Shown here: positions 12,394-21,817 of the stretch, piece by piece
Layout of the letters: the number at the start of each line of letters is the position of its first letter
Numbering within the stretch: position 1 is the stretch's first letter
Assembly (NCBI RefSeq): GCF_001735745.1
Contig: NZ_CP017260.1
Coordinates: 1,830,001 to 1,862,000, forward strand
Length of the DNA stretch: 32,000 nt
From: Formosa sp. Hel1_33_131
Lineage (GTDB): Bacteria > Bacteroidota > Bacteroidia > Flavobacteriales > Flavobacteriaceae
Reading direction: 5' to 3'
Translations under genes and position numbers: made by a program
Notes under the pieces: generated by a model
What the model was told of the DNA's origin: nothing
The model's input: the letters and a program-made list of their open reading frames with translations, nothing else
Database searches by the model: none

Positions 12394-13914
<1,521 letters not shown>

Positions 13915-14542: not shown

Positions 14543-17379
<2,837 letters not shown>

Positions 17380-17515: not shown

Positions 17516-17623
17516 CTAAGGTGGTTATTGCAATGGGGCTCACCTCTTTCCATCCCGAACAGAGCAGTTAAGCCCATTAGCGCCGATGGTACTACATTTG
17601 TGGAAGAGTAGGTCACCGCCTTT
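17516..17623 (+). rRNA. rrf: 5S ribosomal RNA
   Basis: Conserved CCCATCCCGAACAGAGCAGTTAAGCCC and GCGCCGATGGTACT blocks. Helix I forms between AAGGTGGT (17518-) and ACCGCCTT (-17622). Ends are approximate. Confidence 0.93.
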
Positions 17624-17629
17624 TTTGAG

Positions 17630-17664
17630 AATCCCTAACAGAAATGTTAGGGATTTTTTGTTTT
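17630..17664 (+). terminator. Rho-independent terminator of the rRNA operon
   Basis: Perfect 11-bp stem AATCCCTAACA-gaaa-TGTTAGGGATT (17630-17655), followed by TTTTGTTTT. Confidence 0.85.
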
Positions 17665-17720
17665 ATGGAAGCTTGGAAACTAACGGTAATTAAAAATCAC
17701 ATACTCACTTGTTTTTTAAA

Positions 17721-17804
17721 CCCTCACTACCACGCTAAAGCGTGGCGGCAATGGAGCACGGACTACATGTCCGCGCTAGCGGTTTTTTGGTCAGCTTTAG
17801 CTGA
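17721..17804. repeat. String of short GC-rich hairpin modules
   Basis: Three hairpins: CCACGC-taaa-GCGTGG (17730-17745), CGGAC-tacat-GTCCG (17759-17773) and TCAGC-ttta-GCTGA (17791-17804). A T6 run sits at 17783-17788. The style matches the hairpins at 1472-1583 and in the 61-nt ITS repeat. Confidence 0.5.
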
Positions 17805-17946
17805 ATTTGCTACGTGATTGTATAAGATTGGTTGCTTTGTTTAAGCAATAAAGTTAGTAAATAATTACAGACAAAGAAAATCCGCGAGGATTTTCGTAAG
17901 TAAGCAAAAAGCAAGCAATTAATTTTGTACGGTGTTACCACACGTT
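17804..17946. repeat. Structured inverted-repeat element E1 (143 nt; attC-like or MITE-like), outer left arm degenerate
   Basis: The right outer arm is GTTACCACACGTT (17934-17946). The inner 15-nt arms are GTATAAGATTGGTTG (17820-17834) and CAATTAATTTTGTAC (17916-17930). The central hairpin is GAAAATCC-gcga-GGATTTTC (17876-17895). E1 is homologous to E2 along its length and has the same length. Confidence 0.65.
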
Positions 17947-17977
17947 TTTTTCTTTCAGTTTATTATACTGTTTATAT

Positions 17978-18358
17978 TTATTCATATTGTTGACATTCAA
18001 ATATTAAGTGATTCTTAATTTCGATTGGTTTAACAACAATAGAATTCAGTTTTTGATTTGGAAATCCACCAACGAGATATTTTTCAGATTCCAATTTATC
18101 CATCCATTTTAGAAACTCTTTTAGTTCAACCATTTTCACGATACAATTTTTCCATTCAGTTTTAATTAATTCTTGTGCGAATTCCAATTCTGGCCAGATT
18201 GGAATAATCATTTCGTCATCAGTTCCACAAGTGACATAATTCCCTTTTTTGTCCGCAATCAGAAAAATCTGCTCAAAATCTGCAACTTTTCTTATGAGAT
18301 ATCCATACCGTTCTTTGGACTCAAGTTTGAACACACTTTGTAATTGTTTAATATGCAT
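17978..18358 (-). CDS. DUF2750-like small cytoplasmic protein
   Basis: 126-aa ORF with an ATG start. The pattern ...IFLIADKKGNYV......IIPIWPELEFAQ.....W......VELKEFLKWMDKLE....LVGGFPN resembles DUF2750 as I recall that family. It starts 12 nt after the upstream gene ends, so an operon is likely. Confidence 0.55.
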   Translation of the reverse strand: MHIKQLQSVFKLESKERYGYLIRKVADFEQIFLIADKKGNYVTCGTDDEMIIPIWPELEFAQELIKTEWKNCIVKMVELKEFLKWMDKLESEKYLVGGFPNQKLNSIVVKPIEIKNHLIFECQQYE

Positions 18359-18370
18359 AAAAATTAGTTT

Positions 18371-18898
18371 TCAATTCAGTTTTTTATTTTTCAAAATTTC
18401 AAAACCAAAAAATCCTTTTTGAGTTTCAAATTCAACAGTTTTATAAGAATTCATTTTTTCATAAAATTTAGCATAAAATACTAATTCCTTATTTTTTCCT
18501 TCATAGTTTATTGTAAAAACTGGTTGTTTTTCGCCTGTCGAATATTTTGATCCACCTTTTATCCAAGTTCTCCTAATTATTTCATAAGATTTTTTTTCTA
18601 CATTCTGTTCCGCAAAATAATAGTTTGTAAGTATAAAAATTGAACAAACTATAAAACCAAAACCACAGATATAATGCATCAATGAATAAATGTAAAGTCC
18701 AATTCCACTATATTCATAAGTTTTTCTATAATTTTTGAAGTCAATTATAAAACTAATAATTCCAATAGTTAAAACAATTCCAATTAAAATATTTACATCA
18801 ATAATTGTGTTTCGATAAATAATTGTCTGCCAAACCATTAAAAATAAACCCAAAATAAAAATAGTAGGATAAAATATTTTTCGTTGTTTTTTCGTCAT
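18371..18898 (-). CDS. Membrane protein (about 4 TM helices plus a C-terminal soluble domain), family not recognised
   Basis: ORF-track entry 18371..18949 begins at a TTG. I place the start at ATG 18898 (MTKKQRKIFYPTIF), which leaves the E2 left arm outside the CDS. Confidence 0.6.
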   Translation of the reverse strand: MTKKQRKIFYPTIFILGLFLMVWQTIIYRNTIIDVNILIGIVLTIGIISFIIDFKNYRKTYEYSGIGLYIYSLMHYICGFGFIVCSIFILTNYYFAEQNVEKKSYEIIRRTWIKGGSKYSTGEKQPVFTINYEGKNKELVFYAKFYEKMNSYKTVEFETQKGFFGFEILKNKKLN

Positions 18899-18905
18899 TT
18901 TCGGC

Positions 18906-19048
18906 AATGTGTGGTAACGTTTTTGTATATAGTTTGTTGCGTGTTTCAAGTACCTAATTTAGCAAATACAAACCGAATAGAAAATCCGCAGGAATTTTCC
19001 AAGTAAGCGATAACTAGCAATAAATTATATACGTTGTTACCATACGTT
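18906..19048. repeat. Structured inverted-repeat element E2 (143 nt; attC-like or MITE-like), complete
   Basis: The outer arms are AATGTGTGGTAAC (18906-18918) and GTTACCATACGTT (19036-19048). Spacers are GTTTTT on one side and GTT on the other. The inner arms are GTATATAGTTTGTTG (18925-18939) and CAATAAATTATATAC (19018-19032). The central hairpin is GAAAATCC-gca-GGAATTTTC (18980-18999). E2 fills the whole gap between two minus-strand genes. Confidence 0.7.
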
Positions 19049-19050
19049 TT

Positions 19051-19539
19051 TTATTCCATTTTTTTTAATTCTGATTTTTTTACAACAATTGTATTTCCCC
19101 AAATATCTCCTAACCGTTGATTTTTATCTGTGTTTTTTATTGTTATGAATCCGATTAGTCCAAAAAAGAACATATCGATTGGGTCAAGTAAATGTCTTTT
19201 AAAAGATTGTCCAAAAGTCAGTTTTTCGTCCGTTCCGCTAAAAGTTGTATCGTCAGATGATTTTCGGATAGACACAGGTTTTAGTCCAACTAATAAATTC
19301 CCAAGTGTTGCTCCGAACCATTGCTCAAATCCGATAGTCATTATTCCCCAAAATAGCATTGGAATTAATGCAGGAAGACCATTTAAAGAAAATCCACCTT
19401 CACCGTTTGGTTCTCCAAAAGAATAGCCAAAGTAAAAAAAGAAAGCAAAGATTATAACGTAGTCAACAATTCCTGCTAAAATTCGGTCTCCAATATTTGG
19501 TTCAGTTTTAAATTTAGTAGTTAAGTTTGTTTCGTTCAT
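19051..19539 (-). CDS. RDD-family membrane protein
   Basis: N-terminal R..AG.VD motif (GDRILAGIVDYVIIFAFFF), TM helices, and the C-terminal QRLGDIWGNTIVVKK typical of RDD domains. Start placed at ATG 19539 (MNETNLTT). The ORF-track start at 19551 is a TTG. Confidence 0.7.
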   Translation of the reverse strand: MNETNLTTKFKTEPNIGDRILAGIVDYVIIFAFFFYFGYSFGEPNGEGGFSLNGLPALIPMLFWGIMTIGFEQWFGATLGNLLVGLKPVSIRKSSDDTTFSGTDEKLTFGQSFKRHLLDPIDMFFFGLIGFITIKNTDKNQRLGDIWGNTIVVKKSELKKME

Positions 19540-19550
19540 CGTTTTTCTCA

Positions 19551-19574
19551 AATGTATGGTAACTCGTTATATGG
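19551..19574. repeat. Solo left arm of the E-element family (E3 half-site)
   Basis: AATGTATGGTAAC (19551-19563) followed by tc-GTTATATGG. I could find no matching right arm further right. On the minus strand this reads GTTACCATACATTTG, which contains a TAnnTTTG-type -7 box (TACATTTG) just upstream of the RDD ATG. Confidence 0.55.
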
Positions 19575-19631
19575 AGAACAAACCTCCTGTTTATACGTCT
19601 CTATTTCCGGATAACAGGAACTTTTGTTCTC
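19574..19631. other. Two-tier hairpin upstream of the RDD gene
   Basis: GAGAACAAA (19574-19582) pairs with TTTGTTCTC (19623-31). TCCTGTT (19585-91) pairs with AACAGGA (19613-19). The apical loop is 21 nt. Confidence 0.5.
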
Positions 19632-19937
19632 GTTTATCATTTTTCATTTTTTGTATTCATAACCTTAAGTTTATAGAAATTAATTCAACAACTATGCTGC
19701 TCAATTAACTTTTAAAAACATCACATACCCACATACCACTGCGTTAATCACAGTCCTATAATATCTTACTCTAAAGTTGAATTGGTTAAAATGAAGAATC
19801 AGATATGAGGTCTAAGTCTGGGATAAATGTACTAAAAATTGTTGAACTGCTTACAAAGGTCGTTGTAAGCCCGTGGTGTCTGGTCAGATTTGCGGTGTAA
19901 ATTTTTCACTGCAACGTATTAACTGCTTGATTTATAG

Positions 19938-19966: not shown

Positions 19967-21817
19967 TTAAATACTGGCTACAAACTCCAAAAACACTTTT
20001 TTATGTAATTCTAAATCCATCGTAGGAGACAATGAAATACGTACAATATAATCTTTGTCACCTTCTTTTGTGGTGCCTTGGGTAGAGGTGGCGGGAATGG
20101 TCCAATAGCACCCTTGTAACTGTCCATAACTCACACAAAATTTACTTTCGTTTGGGATTTTGCTAATCATTAAATTAATTAATTTAAGATTTAAACCTCT
20201 CTTGTTCGTTTCTCTTTCTGCACTAGTAGTCCCTTTGGTGGGGAGGTCTAGTGAAAACACAGAAGGGGTAAAGCCTTGCGCTGCCAAATCTTCAGACACA
20301 AAATTGATTTTTGCACTTGGTAAAGTCTCTTTTATGAAGTTGACAAAGTCTCGCGTGTTTTTATAGGCGTCCTGAATGCGTTGATTCATGGACGGCAATT
20401 GGGAGGCCAAAATTTTATATTGAAGTGCTGTTGCTTCGTTATCACAAAGTTGGAGGTGCAACTCAATCTTGCCCATCAAGGCTTCGGATTTTTTATTGCC
20501 AACAACGTAGCCCGCCGTACATTTTCCACCACTCGGAAATTTGGACCCACTGGCATACGATAGGGTACGAACGGAAGAAAGCAAGTCATCCGCTCCTAAA
20601 AAGAGAACGTTTGGACAAAAAGTTTGGTCTAAAATAAACACAGGATCGATTGCAATGTCGCCTGTTTTGGTTTTACGGACGGTACTTAATGCATTTTTTA
20701 ATTGTATCAAATCAGGCACTTCCACTCTGGGGTTGGTAGGAATTTCTGCAATGATGTAAGGGATGGCGTCTTCGCTCGCAATTTTAGCTAAGATGGTTTC
20801 AATACTTTGTACCATTTCGTTGTCGCCATCTACGGGTAAATCGACCACTTCCACATTTTCAATACAGGCCGCCACGCGTCGTGCTTGGTCATTAGTACCA
20901 CCATAACAGTTGGGAGGTACAATAAATTTGATCGCTTTTTTGGGATGCTTTTCTTGAGCATGGTGAATGAGCCCCATCATAATCGCGTATTGAACGGAAA
21001 GTCCACTAGAGCCCACAAGGGGTTTTGTAGGACTGTGGGTAATGGTTGTAATGCTTTCTAAAACCTGTGCTTTGCTGGTTTTTAGAGTGCTATTTGTTTC
21101 ATCTGAAGTAGATCCCACTAGAGTCGATAATGCTGTCAAGCAATTGACGGGTGTCATGGCGATGGTTTCTCTTCGTCGTACATGCTGAATGTCGGATATG
21201 TAGCCTTTATTTTGGTTTCCATTTACGAGTAACACACTTCCAAGCGCTGCACTGGTTTGGAGGTAAAAATCGATGTTTGGAGAATGCTCCACCTTCCAAA
21301 GTTCTTTTTGTTGTGAGATAAAAACAGTGCTGCCTTCAAATTCAGATACGACTGTTGCATTTTCAACTTGTTTTAATTCAAATTTATAGCCATAGACACG
21401 TTTTAAGACTTCGGCATCAAAAGTGGCTGGCAACTCCCCTGTATAAACAATTTGGGTGTTTTTATGGGCTAATAAATTAGTTCTTAAAATTGCCAAAACA
21501 GGAACGGTCTGTGATGAAAAACTGATAACGTTTTCTGGGTTGAGTTGATTTAAATTGGCAATGGTCCATTCCAATACACAGGACAAAGGATGTCCTAGTC
21601 GGATGTAGTCGTAAGCGGTGGGCAAGGATTGGAGTGCCGATGGATCAGAATTATGAGTTTTATACAAGGTTTCAAACTGTTCTAAAAACTGAGTTTTGGC
21701 ACCTTTTTCATCGTAAATATCCAGTCGATGGGTGGTTAGATTCAACCAATCGATTGGTAAATTTTCTAAGACTTCTTTTAGATAGTTTAGCATTTTATTC
21801 CCTTCCATAATTTTCAT
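19967..21817 (-). CDS. Cys/Met-metabolism-type PLP-dependent enzyme (cystathionine gamma-synthase/lyase superfamily) with a long N-terminal extension
   Basis: Three features fit the fold-type I Cys/Met PLP family: IAEIPTNPRVEVPDL (compare ETPTNP), a candidate PLP lysine in ASGSKFPSGG, and GSSGLSVQYAIMMGL (compare SSGMAA). The start is uncertain: the ORF-track start at 21835 is a TTG, and in-frame ATGs occur at 21817, 21808 and 21793. Confidence 0.7.
   Translation of the reverse strand: MKIMEGNKMLNYLKEVLENLPIDWLNLTTHRLDIYDEKGAKTQFLEQFETLYKTHNSDPSALQSLPTAYDYIRLGHPLSCVLEWTIANLNQLNPENVISFSSQTVPVLAILRTNLLAHKNTQIVYTGELPATFDAEVLKRVYGYKFELKQVENATVVSEFEGSTVFISQQKELWKVEHSPNIDFYLQTSAALGSVLLVNGNQNKGYISDIQHVRRRETIAMTPVNCLTALSTLVGSTSDETNSTLKTSKAQVLESITTITHSPTKPLVGSSGLSVQYAIMMGLIHHAQEKHPKKAIKFIVPPNCYGGTNDQARRVAACIENVEVVDLPVDGDNEMVQSIETILAKIASEDAIPYIIAEIPTNPRVEVPDLIQLKNALSTVRKTKTGDIAIDPVFILDQTFCPNVLFLGADDLLSSVRTLSYASGSKFPSGGKCTAGYVVGNKKSEALMGKIELHLQLCDNEATALQYKILASQLPSMNQRIQDAYKNTRDFVNFIKETLPSAKINFVSEDLAAQGFTPSVFSLDLPTKGTTSAERETNKRGLNLKLINLMISKIPNESKFCVSYGQLQGCYWTIPATSTQGTTKEGDKDYIVRISLSPTMDLELHKKVFLEFVASI

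What the first reader, a model, noticed from the sequence alone, without database searches (positions are those of the whole stretch)
17804..19574. 143-nt attC-like (or MITE-like) structured elements bracket co-oriented small gene cassettes directly downstream of the rRNA operon
Two 143-nt elements, E1 (17804-17946) and E2 (18906-19048), are homologous along their length. A third solo arm sits at 19551-19574. Each full element has four parts: an outer 13-nt inverted repeat AAYGTRTGGTAAC ... GTTACCAYACGTT, an asymmetric unpaired spacer (6 nt versus 3 nt), a second 15-nt inverted repeat (GTATAnnnTTnnTTG and its complement), and a variable centre with its own 8-bp hairpin (GAAAATCC..GGATTTTC). 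The elements sit exactly at gene borders. On the coding (minus) strand, the ...GGTAAC arm starts 5 nt after the RDD stop codon, and the GTTACC... arm ends 10-14 nt before the next ATG. The layout R''-spacer-L''-variable-L'-spacer-R' matches integron attC sites. So do the inner AAC/GTT triplets, the ~140-nt length, and the small co-oriented genes of unrelated function (RDD; membrane protein plus DUF2750-like). No integron integrase or other recombinase is in the window, so at most this is a CALIN-like cluster. Integron-type cassette arrays are rarely reported in Flavobacteriia, and a position next to an rrn operon would be unusual. The alternative is a MITE family with 13-bp terminal inverted repeats that inserted between genes.
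Basis: partly seen in the sequence, partly recalled or inferred. Interest (0 to 1): 0.75.

Follow-up and report, generated by a model that had tools for sequence, protein, structure and literature searches.

The report
Integron-like gene cassettes in flavobacteria
The two hairpin repeats are recombination sites that bound mobile gene cassettes; they belong to an integron-like gene-capture system, apparently undescribed, that marine flavobacteria and their viruses share and that seems to use its own kind of recombinase.

Summary
E1 (17801-17946) and E2 (18906-19048) are homologous ~143-nt imperfect hairpins, and the "solo arm" (19551-19563) is the 5' end of the first cassette.

They are attC-like recombination sites, not MITEs.
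- The RDD cassette (19562-18918) recurs at 99.85% identity in three unrelated genomic contexts. Homology starts and stops at G|TT.
- Across 115 adjacent site pairs from related loci, the bases after GTT pair with the R'' arm of the next site (7.4/10). They pair with their own hairpin at about the random level (4.0/10 against 3.5/10; p=3e-17). This is the footprint of circular cassettes opened at G|TT.
- Conserved G·T wobbles let only the bottom strand fold fully (97.7% against 80.7% paired).

No IntI-type integrase was found in any fetched locus. In Aestuariibaculum, Mangrovimonas and several MAGs, arrays of these sites start at an attI-like site at the 3' end of a co-oriented Xer/XerA-like tyrosine recombinase. 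That enzyme lacks the IntI-specific insertion.

The window holds an integrase-less array behind an attI-like platform. Flavobacterial phages carry arrays of the same sites with their genes inverted.

Verdict: an integron analogue, a new variant of a known kind. The recombinase assignment is inferred, not shown.

The parts
19727..19857 (-). 'B' module: a conserved non-coding ~130-nt element at the head of the array. It may carry a promoter or leader, and it may be the 5' part of an ORF-less cassette that begins at CAG|TTCAAC.
   Evidence: Duplicated on both sides of an Abi_2 gene in L001/L003. Present at array heads and inside arrays in L012/L013 and in Formosa-clade MAGs. Resembles the native 5' region of a Sortilin/Por_Secre_tail gene. 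Its function is inferred.
19563..19631 (-). attI-like insertion site: a strong hairpin (arms 19574-19597 and 19608-19631) followed by CCATATAACGA and the crossover G (19563).
   Evidence: Hairpin. The same hairpin and ..ATAAC.AG|TT are followed by a different first cassette in L013 and L029. The layout (palindrome + GATATAC..G|TT) matches the sites at the 3' end of the recombinase genes in L118, L184, L185, L188 and L202.
18918..19562 (-).
   Evidence: 99.85% identical over 652 nt (window 19567-18916) to L012, L013 and L020, which are different genomic contexts; homology ends at G|TT on both sides. Pfam RDD E=1.8e-20.
18906..19048 (-). E2, an attC-like site: R'' AACGTATGGTAAC, spacer AAC, L'' GTATATAATTTATTGC, variable centre, L' GCAACAAACTATATAC, spacer AAAAAC, R' G|TTACCACACATT. 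The last 12 nt belong to cassette 2.
   Evidence: Fold. Covariance-model hit of 132.7 bits, but E2 was in the training set. Family alignment and covariation.
17813..18917 (-). Cassette 2: TTACCACACATT, a 175-aa membrane protein (18898-18371), a DUF2750 protein (18358-17978), and attC-like site E1 up to the crossover G at 17813.
   Evidence: Its 5' end TTACCACAC is perfectly complementary to its own R'' GTGTGGTAA in E1 and mismatches E2's GTATGG. DUF2750 E=5.7e-24. The cassette is conserved in L001-L010.
17801..17946 (-). E1, the last attC-like site of the array. Its R' side is G|TAGCAAATTCAG, which is probably the original sequence downstream of the insertion site.
   Evidence: Alignment with E2. 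Model hit of 95.6 bits, training member. The reading of the degenerate arm as the array terminus is inference.
17625..17800 (-). Non-coding tail between the array and the 5S rRNA. It holds GC-rich hairpins and a 17-nt copy of the 3' end of B (17692-17708).
   Evidence: Repeat D7. 100% conserved in L001-L007. No Rfam match. Role unknown.

Best explanation
The region 17801-19857 (minus strand) is a short, integrase-less array of two mobile gene cassettes sitting behind an attI-like platform. It belongs to an integron-like system of Flavobacteriaceae.

Each cassette is a former circle of the form TT...gene(s)...R''-L''-variable-L'-...G. E1 and E2 are the attC-equivalent sites. As single-stranded DNA, their bottom strand (the window's + strand) folds into a two-helix hairpin: an R box and an L box separated by a 6-versus-3-nt loop. 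A tyrosine recombinase cuts between G and TT of the R' arm and exchanges one strand, as in integrons.

The most likely enzyme is a Flavobacteriaceae Xer/XerA-like tyrosine recombinase of about 375-400 aa. It has a ~100-aa N-terminal extension and lacks the IntI-specific insertion. It would be encoded elsewhere in the genome and act in trans.

Shown here: the cassette boundaries, the cassette-closure footprint, the bottom-strand-specific structure, and the physical association of such arrays with this recombinase in other genomes.

Inferred: catalysis by that recombinase, the single-stranded substrate, and a promoter role for the B module.
For: 1. Mobility with exact boundaries. The 162-aa RDD protein is identical in three contexts: Cys/Met-PLP gene to rrn, DCC1-like gene to SDF, and polA. 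DNA identity is 99.85% over 652 nt (window 19567-18916) and stops at G|TT on both sides.
2. Variable content at the head of the array. L001/L003 carry an Abi_2 gene, L004 carries a DUF4160/DUF2442 pair, and L011/L013 carry 2 to 5 extra genes.
3. Closure footprint. In 115 adjacent site pairs, the 10 nt after GTT complement the next site's R'' at 7.43/10. The same-hairpin value is 3.99, the reversed control 3.38 and random pairs 3.53; Wilcoxon p=3e-17 (smaller set). In the window, cassette 2's TTACCACAC matches E1's GTGTGGTAA.
4. Structure. There are compensatory changes in both helices. The L helix is 97.7% paired on the bottom strand against 80.7% on the top strand, with an invariant G·T at one pair (22/22) and another at 19/22. 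A C·A (top) / G·T (bottom) pair sits in the R box in 177/215 sites. The bottom strand folds better for E1 and E2 and for 7/7 sites of L190.
5. Family statistics. There are 215 full-length sites in 91 loci. 196 have AAC...GTT. 55 loci have several sites, and none mixes orientations. In 104 of 108 classifiable metagenome sites, a co-directional ORF ends next to R''.
6. Recombinase link. A tyrosine recombinase is followed directly, in the same direction, by an attI-like site and cassettes in:
- L118;
- L184 and L185-187;
- Aestuariibaculum lutulentum CP136709, with at least 20 ORFs and 9 model hits;
- Mangrovimonas aestuarii, with the same upstream synteny but different cassettes and 6 hits;
- L190, which has its own attC type and obeys the closure rule in 7/7 cases.
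The enzyme lacks the IntI insertion. Its nearest solved relatives are XerA and IntI4.
Against: - No recombinase lies in the 32-kb window or in any locus of its own lineage (L001-L038). Whether this genome encodes the enzyme is unknown.
- Association is not catalysis. One homologue (L181) has no clear cassette, and a population carrying the L118 locus shows no polymorphism there.
- A classical IntI elsewhere in the genome cannot be excluded. IntI1 can recombine one related phage site (PMC9892861).
- E1 ends in GTA rather than GTT.
- The platform upstream of RDD is not recognised by the covariance model.
- The Abi_2 presence/absence is flanked by 131-nt direct repeats of B, so ordinary homologous recombination explains it more simply.
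- The model was trained on sites found with a pattern taken from E1/E2, and its E-values are rough.
Confidence: 0.75

Rival explanations
1. A classical integron remnant (CALIN). E1 and E2 are ordinary attC sites serviced by a canonical IntI integrase encoded elsewhere in the genome or brought in by a mobile element. The adjacency to a Xer-like gene in other genomes would be coincidental or secondary.
For: The architecture and crossover point match attC sites. Site-prediction software called sites in Polaribacter phage P12002L as attC. One of them (attC2), which shares the R''-AAC-AAC-GGATAAAAC left half, was recombined by IntI1 with a bottom-strand preference (PMC9892861).
Against: The only hits were Xer-like genes lacking the insertion, plus one Arm-type island integrase. 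IntegronFinder surveys report no complete integron in Bacteroidetes apart from Salinibacter (PMC9024848). P12002L_attC1, a clear short member of this family, was the one site IntI1 did not recombine. In six lineages the arrays begin exactly at the 3' end of the Xer-like gene.
Confidence: 0.13
2. A MITE or REP-like selfish hairpin element that inserted between genes. The elements themselves move, not the genes.
For: The elements are short, structured, AT-rich, intergenic and repeated. E2 has 13-nt terminal inverted repeats.
Against: The two ends of one hairpin are no more complementary than random pairs (3.99 against 3.53 of 10), whereas the distal end matches the next element (7.43). There are no target-site duplications. 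The unit shared between genomes is gene plus element, with its borders inside the element. Orientation is strictly uniform within arrays.
Confidence: 0.02
3. Conserved regulatory hairpins (terminator, RNA-processing site or promoter-stem-loop) that only look like cassette borders. On this view, homologous recombination between the conserved 16-20-nt boxes shuffles the genes between them, as proposed for the promoter-stem-loops of T4-type phages.
For: The L boxes are long and nearly identical between sites. In phages the sites lie between early or accessory genes, and the transcript there would carry the well-folding strand. Loss of Abi_2 between the B repeats looks like plain homologous recombination.
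Against: Homologous exchange inside the L boxes would not keep the variable spacer with the upstream cassette. It would not place the break at G|TT, and it would not make each cassette's 5' end complementary to its own R''. Orientation relative to transcription is opposite in bacteria and phages, yet the G·T asymmetry follows the element, which argues for a DNA-level substrate. There is no Rfam match.
Confidence: 0.06
4. Phage-derived DNA. The array would be a decayed fragment of a flavophage accessory region carried into the chromosome, with no recombination now taking place in the host.
For: The same site family is abundant in true phage contigs and in cultured Polaribacter and Tenacibaculum phages.
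Against: Gene orientation relative to the sites is canonical in bacterial arrays (104 of 108) and reversed in phage arrays (9 of 9). No cassette protein was shared between the sampled bacterial and phage arrays. Bacterial arrays are anchored to a conserved chromosomal recombinase locus. There are no phage genes in the window.
Confidence: 0.04

Closest known systems
Integron attC sites and CALIN clusters (IntI-dependent cassettes; IntegronFinder definitions, PMC4889954)
   Same: - R''-L''-variable-L'-R' layout with AAC/GTT triplets.
- Structure is conserved more than sequence, and lengths run from 66 to 215 nt.
- The bottom strand folds better.
- The crossover is at G|TT, so the R' remainder belongs to the next cassette.
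- Cassettes are co-oriented, mostly promoterless small genes, including toxin-antitoxin and Abi-type defence genes.
- The window has at least two sites and no integrase nearby.
   Different: - No IntI was found in any fetched locus.
- There are no conserved extrahelical bases. Strand asymmetry comes instead from fixed G·T wobbles and a 6-versus-3-nt loop.
- The R boxes are 13 nt and do not fit RYYYAAC/GTTRRRY beyond the triplets.
- Whether the IntegronFinder attC model detects them could not be tested.
Sedentary chromosomal integrons (for example the Vibrio superintegron with VCR repeats)
   Same: - Long chromosomal arrays with lineage-specific, highly similar sites.
- A conserved integrase locus with different cassettes in related genera (Aestuariibaculum against Mangrovimonas).
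- Many genes of unknown function, plus defence and toxin-antitoxin genes.
   Different: - The recombinase is co-oriented with the array, and the insertion site lies at or just past its stop codon. In a classical integron, intI is divergent and has an upstream attI and Pc promoter.
- The enzyme lacks the IntI insertion and has an extra N-terminal domain.
- Additional integrase-less arrays sit behind portable attI-like platforms at several chromosomal loci.
'CALIN' of Polaribacter phage P12002L (Front Microbiol 2023, PMC9892861)
   Same: P12002L_attC1 (L060 30006-30060) is a short member of the same family, with the motifs AAT-GGCTA...TAGCC-GTAGCC-G|TT. The sites flank DNA methyltransferase genes.
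   Different: That paper treated two predicted sites in one phage as classical attC sites. It did not describe the family, its chromosomal arrays, the closure rule or the associated recombinase. attC1 was not recombined by IntI1.
XerA / XerC-D / IntI tyrosine recombinases (PDB 4A8E, 5HXY, 2A3V, 1A0P)
   Same: The associated enzyme shares the catalytic residues aligned (R146, H277, R280, Y312, IntI1 numbering). It scores above the NCBIfam cut-off for 'site-specific tyrosine recombinase/integron integrase' (NF040815, 246 bits). Its best PDB matches are XerA (E=9e-40) and IntI4 (E=1e-38).
   Different: It scores below the cut-off for the integron-integrase family TIGR02249 (220 bits against 265), matching in two pieces because the IntI insertion is missing. 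It has a ~100-aa N-terminal extension with no Pfam match.
Xer-dependent single-strand integration (CTX phage at dif) and pdif modules
   Same: A Xer-type enzyme acts on a folded single strand with a single strand exchange. This is a mechanistic precedent for a non-IntI enzyme using hairpin substrates (established knowledge, not tested here).
   Different: These sites are not 28-bp dif-like sites. The arrays are cassettes in tandem, not phage genomes or inverted pdif pairs.

Membership tests
Integron attC site | Two pairs of imperfect inverted repeats (R''/R' and L''/L') with conserved 5'-AAC and GTT-3' triplets | tested here: met
   E2 has both pairs. 196 of 215 family sites have AAC...GTT. 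Both helices show covariation. Exception: E1's R' reads GTA.
Integron attC site | Crossover between G and TT of R', so each cassette's 5' end derives from, and pairs with, its own attC | tested here: met
   The RDD cassette borders fall at G|TT in three contexts. R'(i) against R''(i+1) scores 7.43/10 and same-hairpin 3.99/10, p=3e-17.
Integron attC site | The bottom strand is the better-folding (recombined) strand | tested here: met
   In silico only. The L helix is 97.7% paired on the bottom strand and 80.7% on the top strand. Fold energies favour the bottom strand for E1 and E2 and for 7/7 sites of L190. Actual strand use was not tested.
Integron attC site | Conserved extrahelical bases and an unpaired central spacer that set orientation | tested here: inconclusive
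   An asymmetric unpaired spacer is present (6 versus 3 nt). No conserved bulged bases occur in the L helix; one extra base appears in 6 of 22 sites. Fixed G·T wobbles take the place of the asymmetry.
Integron attC site | Detected by the IntegronFinder attC covariance model | not testable with these tools
   The model is not available here. Rfam has no attC family, and nothing matched.
Integron attC site | Recombined by an IntI integrase | not testable with these tools
   Literature only: the family member P12002L_attC1 was not recombined by IntI1, and the related attC2 was (PMC9892861).
Complete integron | An adjacent intI gene encoding a tyrosine recombinase with the IntI-specific insertion | tested here: not met
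   There is none in the window or in the related loci. The recombinase next to related arrays lacks the insertion.
Complete integron | An attI site next to the integrase where new cassettes enter, with a Pc promoter | tested here: inconclusive
   An attI-like site (palindrome + GATATAC..G|TT) lies at the 3' end of the recombinase gene in L118, L184, L185, L188 and L202, and, without the gene, in the window. Its orientation is the reverse of the classical one. No promoter was tested.
[quoted passage not shown] | At least two co-oriented attC sites with no integrase nearby | tested here: met
   E1 and E2 are co-oriented and 1.1 kb apart, with no recombinase in 32 kb. This holds only if the sites are accepted as attC-type.
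MITE | Terminal inverted repeats that pair within one element, target-site duplications, and scattered solitary copies | tested here: not met
   The ends of one element pair no better than random. No duplications flank E1 or E2. Copies occur in uniform arrays tied to genes.
Xer/dif-type modules | 28-bp sites with two 11-nt arms and a 6-nt spacer in duplex DNA | tested here: not met
   The sites are 66-215-nt hairpins with two helices. No dif-like site was searched for specifically.

The most novel reading that the evidence does not exclude
Flavobacteriaceae, and perhaps other Bacteroidota, have their own integron analogue. A Xer/XerA-like recombinase without the IntI domain captures cassettes at a site overlapping its own 3' end, using hairpin sites whose strand choice is encoded by G·T wobbles. 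The same sites also build inverted cassette arrays in virulent flavophages that encode no such enzyme. Host and phage would then draw on one host-run cassette exchange.
Probability: 0.5. Interest if true: 0.9.

Novelty: new variant of a known kind. Interest (0 to 1): 0.82.

Why it matters
Integrons are regarded as a system defined by IntI, and surveys have found essentially none in Bacteroidetes.

If these arrays are serviced by a different tyrosine recombinase, single-strand hairpin cassette capture either evolved or diversified beyond IntI. Current detection tools, which need the IntI insertion and use an attC model built on proteobacterial sites, would then miss a whole phylum's cassette pool.

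The cassettes seen here include abortive-infection and toxin-antitoxin genes in bacteria and DNA methyltransferases in phages. The system may therefore be a shared arena for defence and counter-defence in abundant marine bloom bacteria.

It is directly testable. Aestuariibaculum lutulentum and Mangrovimonas aestuarii are cultured and carry the recombinase with long arrays. Polaribacter phages with such sites are also in culture.

Tried and rejected
- Rfam at gathering and permissive thresholds gave only rRNA and tRNA genes; nothing matched the elements.
- The first look-up of the RDD protein failed because my coordinates included one extra codon. It worked after correction.
- Folding the B module gave no stable structure on either strand (z = +0.7 and +2.0), so B is not a hairpin site.
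- I tried to read the platform upstream of RDD as a full attC. It has only a weak R''-like match, and the covariance model does not hit it. This is left open.
- I looked for cassette polymorphism next to the L118 recombinase. All 8 places shown were identical.
- I looked for cassette proteins shared between bacterial and phage arrays and found none at E<1e-5.
- The covariance model returned nothing for phage Danklef_1 (L199), although two sites are plain in the sequence. I treat this as a tool anomaly and did not use the locus in the statistics.
- The sigma-70 promoter scan was not run because Bacteroidota promoters differ.
- Literature searches found no description of this system. The library is limited to open-access papers and preprints.
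Full report
**1. The observation**

The window carries an rrn operon on the + strand: 16S at 12394-13913, two tRNAs, 23S at 14546-17378 and 5S at 17517-17624. Immediately downstream, three small genes lie on the minus strand:
- an RDD-family protein (19539-19051, E=1.8e-20);
- a 175-aa membrane protein (18898-18371);
- a DUF2750 protein (18358-17978, E=5.7e-24).

The motif GTTACCAYACRTT occurs exactly four times, at 17934+, 18906-, 19036+ and 19551-. E1 and E2 align over their full length. E2 folds as a 13-bp stem, a 6-versus-3-nt loop, a 16-bp stem and a variable centre.

One correction matters. E1's distal arm is not a repeat of the motif; it reads GTAGCAAATTCAG.

**2. Relatives show these are cassette borders**

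The exact DUF2750 protein occurs on metagenome contigs that match the window except at the head of the array:
- some have an extra Abi_2 gene (L001, L003), which matches PD-T4-5/AbiD defence models;
- one has a DUF4160/DUF2442 pair (L004);
- others have nothing extra (L002).

The exact RDD protein occurs in two further, unrelated contexts:
- after a DCC1-like gene, with 0, 2 or 5 extra genes upstream and a PIN toxin-antitoxin pair downstream (L011-L019);
- after polA (L020).

DNA identity between contexts is 99.85% over 652 nt, spanning window 19567-18916. Upstream, the sequences diverge right before G|TTACCATACATT. Downstream, they diverge right after ...CTATATACAAAAACG|TT. The window continues TTACCACACATT, and L012 and L020 continue TTGGCAACAAGC.

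The mobile unit is therefore TT-gene-site-G. This is how integron cassettes are delimited (established knowledge of attC recombination).

**3. The family**

I scanned public collections with a pattern taken from E1, E2 and two relatives.
- The viral scan found 21 IMG/VR contigs. They are true phages with terminase, capsid, portal and many DNA methylase genes.
- BLAST found the sites in cultured Polaribacter phages Danklef_1-5 and in Tenacibaculum phage JQ.
- The metagenome scan stopped at its 120-locus limit.

I aligned 22 distinct sites on each strand. Both helices show compensatory changes (for example A-T 15 / G-C 6, and T-A 16 / A-T 6). The structure beats every shifted control.

The L helix is 80.7% paired on the coding strand and 97.7% paired on the other strand. 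The cause is fixed G·T wobbles: one is invariant in 22/22 sites and another is present in 19/22. These read as A·C mismatches on the coding strand. A further C·A / G·T position lies in the R box in 177 of 215 sites. The functional form is therefore a single strand, and it is the bottom strand, as for attC.

A covariance model of the bottom strand found 215 full-length sites in 91 further loci, with lengths of 66-215 nt.
- 196 have AAC...GTT.
- All 55 multi-site loci are uniform in orientation.

**4. The decisive test between cassette and selfish hairpin**

If each cassette was once a circle opened at G|TT, the bases after GTT in site i must pair with R'' of site i+1, not with R'' of site i. 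Over 115 adjacent pairs, scored out of 10 with the triplets excluded (first seen):

| Comparison | Complementary positions |
|---|---|
| R'(i) with R''(i+1) | 7.43 (mode 9) |
| R'(i) with R''(i), same hairpin | 3.99 |
| Reversed control, R'(i+1) with R''(i) | 3.38 |
| Random pairs from different loci | 3.53 |

The paired Wilcoxon test gives p=3e-17.

The window obeys the rule. Cassette 2 begins TTACCACAC, which matches E1's GTGTGGTAA. The RDD cassette begins TTACCATAC, which matches E2's GTATGGTAA.

This rejects the MITE reading. It also argues against shuffling by homologous recombination between conserved boxes.

**5. Which recombinase?**

No IntI-like gene appears in any locus. Among the 120 metagenome loci:
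- one (L118) has an intact 399-aa tyrosine recombinase directly followed, in the same direction, by a one-gene cassette and a site;
- three others have the C-terminus or remnants of such a gene beside arrays.

The L118 junction reads GTTCCGATATACAGTAG|TTAGCAAATATT. The cassette's 5' end matches its own R'' (ACATTTGCTAAC) at 12 of 13 positions.

Homologues are widespread in Flavobacteriaceae. Their contexts show the same arrangement:

| Locus | What follows the recombinase |
|---|---|
| L184 | The identical GTTCCGATATACAGTAG\|TT motif, one gene and a weak site |
| L185-187 | One gene and a short site, then the contigs end |
| Aestuariibaculum lutulentum CP136709 (L188) | At least 20 small co-oriented ORFs with 9 model hits in the gaps |
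| Mangrovimonas aestuarii (L202) | Same upstream synteny as L188, different cassettes, 6 hits |
| L190 (3.56-Mb genome) | 14 ORFs with a lineage-specific site type; closure rule holds 7/7 and the bottom strand is more stable 7/7 |
| L200 (Bacteroidales homologue) | One site two genes downstream |

One homologue (L181) has no clear cassette.

The enzyme:
- passes the NCBIfam cut-off for "site-specific tyrosine recombinase/integron integrase" (NF040815);
- fails the integron-integrase family TIGR02249, matching it in two pieces;
- has XerA (E=9e-40) and IntI4 (E=1e-38) as its nearest solved relatives.

The link is by position only. Catalysis is inferred.

**6. The window in this light**

Reading the minus strand from the Cys/Met-PLP-like gene (stop at 19967):
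1. The conserved B module (19857-19727).
2. A strong hairpin (19631-19574).
3. CCATATAACGA and the crossover G|TT (19563|19562).
4. The RDD cassette.
5. E2.
6. The two-gene cassette.
7. E1, ending in G|TAGCAAATTC.
8. 176 nt of non-coding tail.
9. The 5S gene, which converges on the array.

The hairpin plus ..ATAAC.AG|TT recurs in L013 and L029 in front of different first cassettes. Its layout matches the sites at the recombinase 3' ends. I therefore read it as a portable attI-like platform.

B recurs at array heads and inside arrays. It resembles the native upstream region of a secreted-protein gene. A promoter or leader role is a guess.

The Abi_2 difference is flanked by 131-nt B repeats. 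Homologous recombination between them explains it most simply.

**7. Phages**

In phage contigs the sites also form arrays: nine or more in L041 and about six each in L046 and L050. They obey the closure rule.

The genes, however, run opposite to the sites. This holds for 9 of 9 classifiable phage sites. In metagenome arrays, which are mostly chromosomal, 104 of 108 sites are canonical.

The phage windows encode no such recombinase. No cassette protein was shared with the sampled bacterial arrays.

A 2023 paper called two sites in Polaribacter phage P12002L a CALIN. Its attC1 is a short member of this family and was the one site IntI1 failed to recombine. Its attC2 shares only the left half of the family pattern and was recombined (PMC9892861).

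**8. Comparison and novelty**

It works like an integron. Membership in the IntI-defined family fails on the integrase and is untested for the attC model.

IntegronFinder 2 reports no complete integron in Bacteroidetes other than Salinibacter (PMC9024848). A tyrosine-recombinase survey notes that its "integron-like" subgroup does not always carry the insertion (PMC8138268). I found no description of this system, but the library is partial.

I class it as a new variant of a known kind.

**9. Caveats**

- The covariance model was seeded from E1 and E2, and its E-values are rough.
- The window's own genome was not available, so the presence of the recombinase there is unknown.
- The organism is inferred only as a Formosa-related flavobacterium, from the B matches.
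- One locus (L199) gave an unexplained empty model search.

Noticed in passing
window 19727-19857 (minus); L013 5483-5620, 8439-8526, 9649-9778; L012 18790-18870: The 'B' module is a ~130-nt conserved non-coding element at array heads and inside arrays. Its units begin at a G|TT (CAG|TTCAAC or AATG|TTAAAACCC). It resembles the upstream region of a native Sortilin/Por_Secre_tail gene. It may be a promoter-bearing ORF-less cassette.
   Followed up: partly
L001 2190-3122 and L003 (against window 19727): An Abi_2 gene matching PD-T4-5/AbiD defence models is present or absent between two 131-nt copies of B. This looks like gain or loss by homologous recombination rather than by the site-specific route.
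   Followed up: partly
L004 700-800 and L020 9800-9860: A second conserved non-coding module ('C': CCCCAGATCTAAATCTTCA..TTAACCGAAGTTT) related to B precedes the RDD cassette in two other contexts.
   Followed up: no
window 17625-17800: The non-coding tail between E1 and the 5S rRNA has GC-rich hairpins (CCACGCTTTAGCGTGG and GCGCGGACATGTAGTCCGTGC) and a 17-nt copy of the 3' end of B (17692-17708). It has no Rfam match. Many metagenome contigs end here because of the rrn repeat.
   Followed up: partly
L039-L059, L060, L199 (phage loci): Flavobacterial phages, including cultured Polaribacter phages Danklef_1-5 and P12002L and Tenacibaculum phage JQ, carry arrays of the same sites with genes in the reverse orientation. 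The phage contigs are rich in DNA methyltransferase genes, and these windows have no cognate recombinase.
   Followed up: partly
L167 1-4131: A four-site array lies divergently next to a 405-aa integrase that scores much more weakly against the Xer and integron-integrase models than the L118 enzyme. Its N-terminus looks to me like the Arm-type integrases of Bacteroidetes islands, and further unannotated ORFs follow it. An integrative element may have landed beside, or be carrying, an array.
   Followed up: no
L188 6442-9911 and L202 5018-7925: A divergent 438-442-aa tyrosine-recombinase-like gene (weak Phage_integrase match) and three small genes are conserved just upstream of the array recombinase in Aestuariibaculum and Mangrovimonas. 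They are absent from the other recombinase loci.
   Followed up: partly
L181 9200-9400: After the recombinase's GATATACAGTAG|TT there is a ~190-nt ORF-less stretch that begins TTGTGC and ends GCACAAC. It is followed by TTACCAAATTA, the same sequence that follows the single cassette in L118. It could be a decayed cassette or a nearly empty insertion site.
   Followed up: no
L185-L187 (ends) and L200 (end): Several assemblies break within a few hundred bases downstream of the recombinase gene, right at the first site. This is as expected if the array is repetitive or variable in the population.
   Followed up: no
L199 6480-6620 and 7213-7355: The covariance-model search returned no hit for this locus, although two clear sites are visible in the sequence. 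This is probably a tool problem with the reverse-complemented phage locus.
   Followed up: partly
L012 10625-11060: Downstream of the RDD cassette in context B there are gene fragments (a short ORF and what may be the C-terminal end of another gene) without a recognisable site. This suggests cassette decay inside arrays.
   Followed up: no
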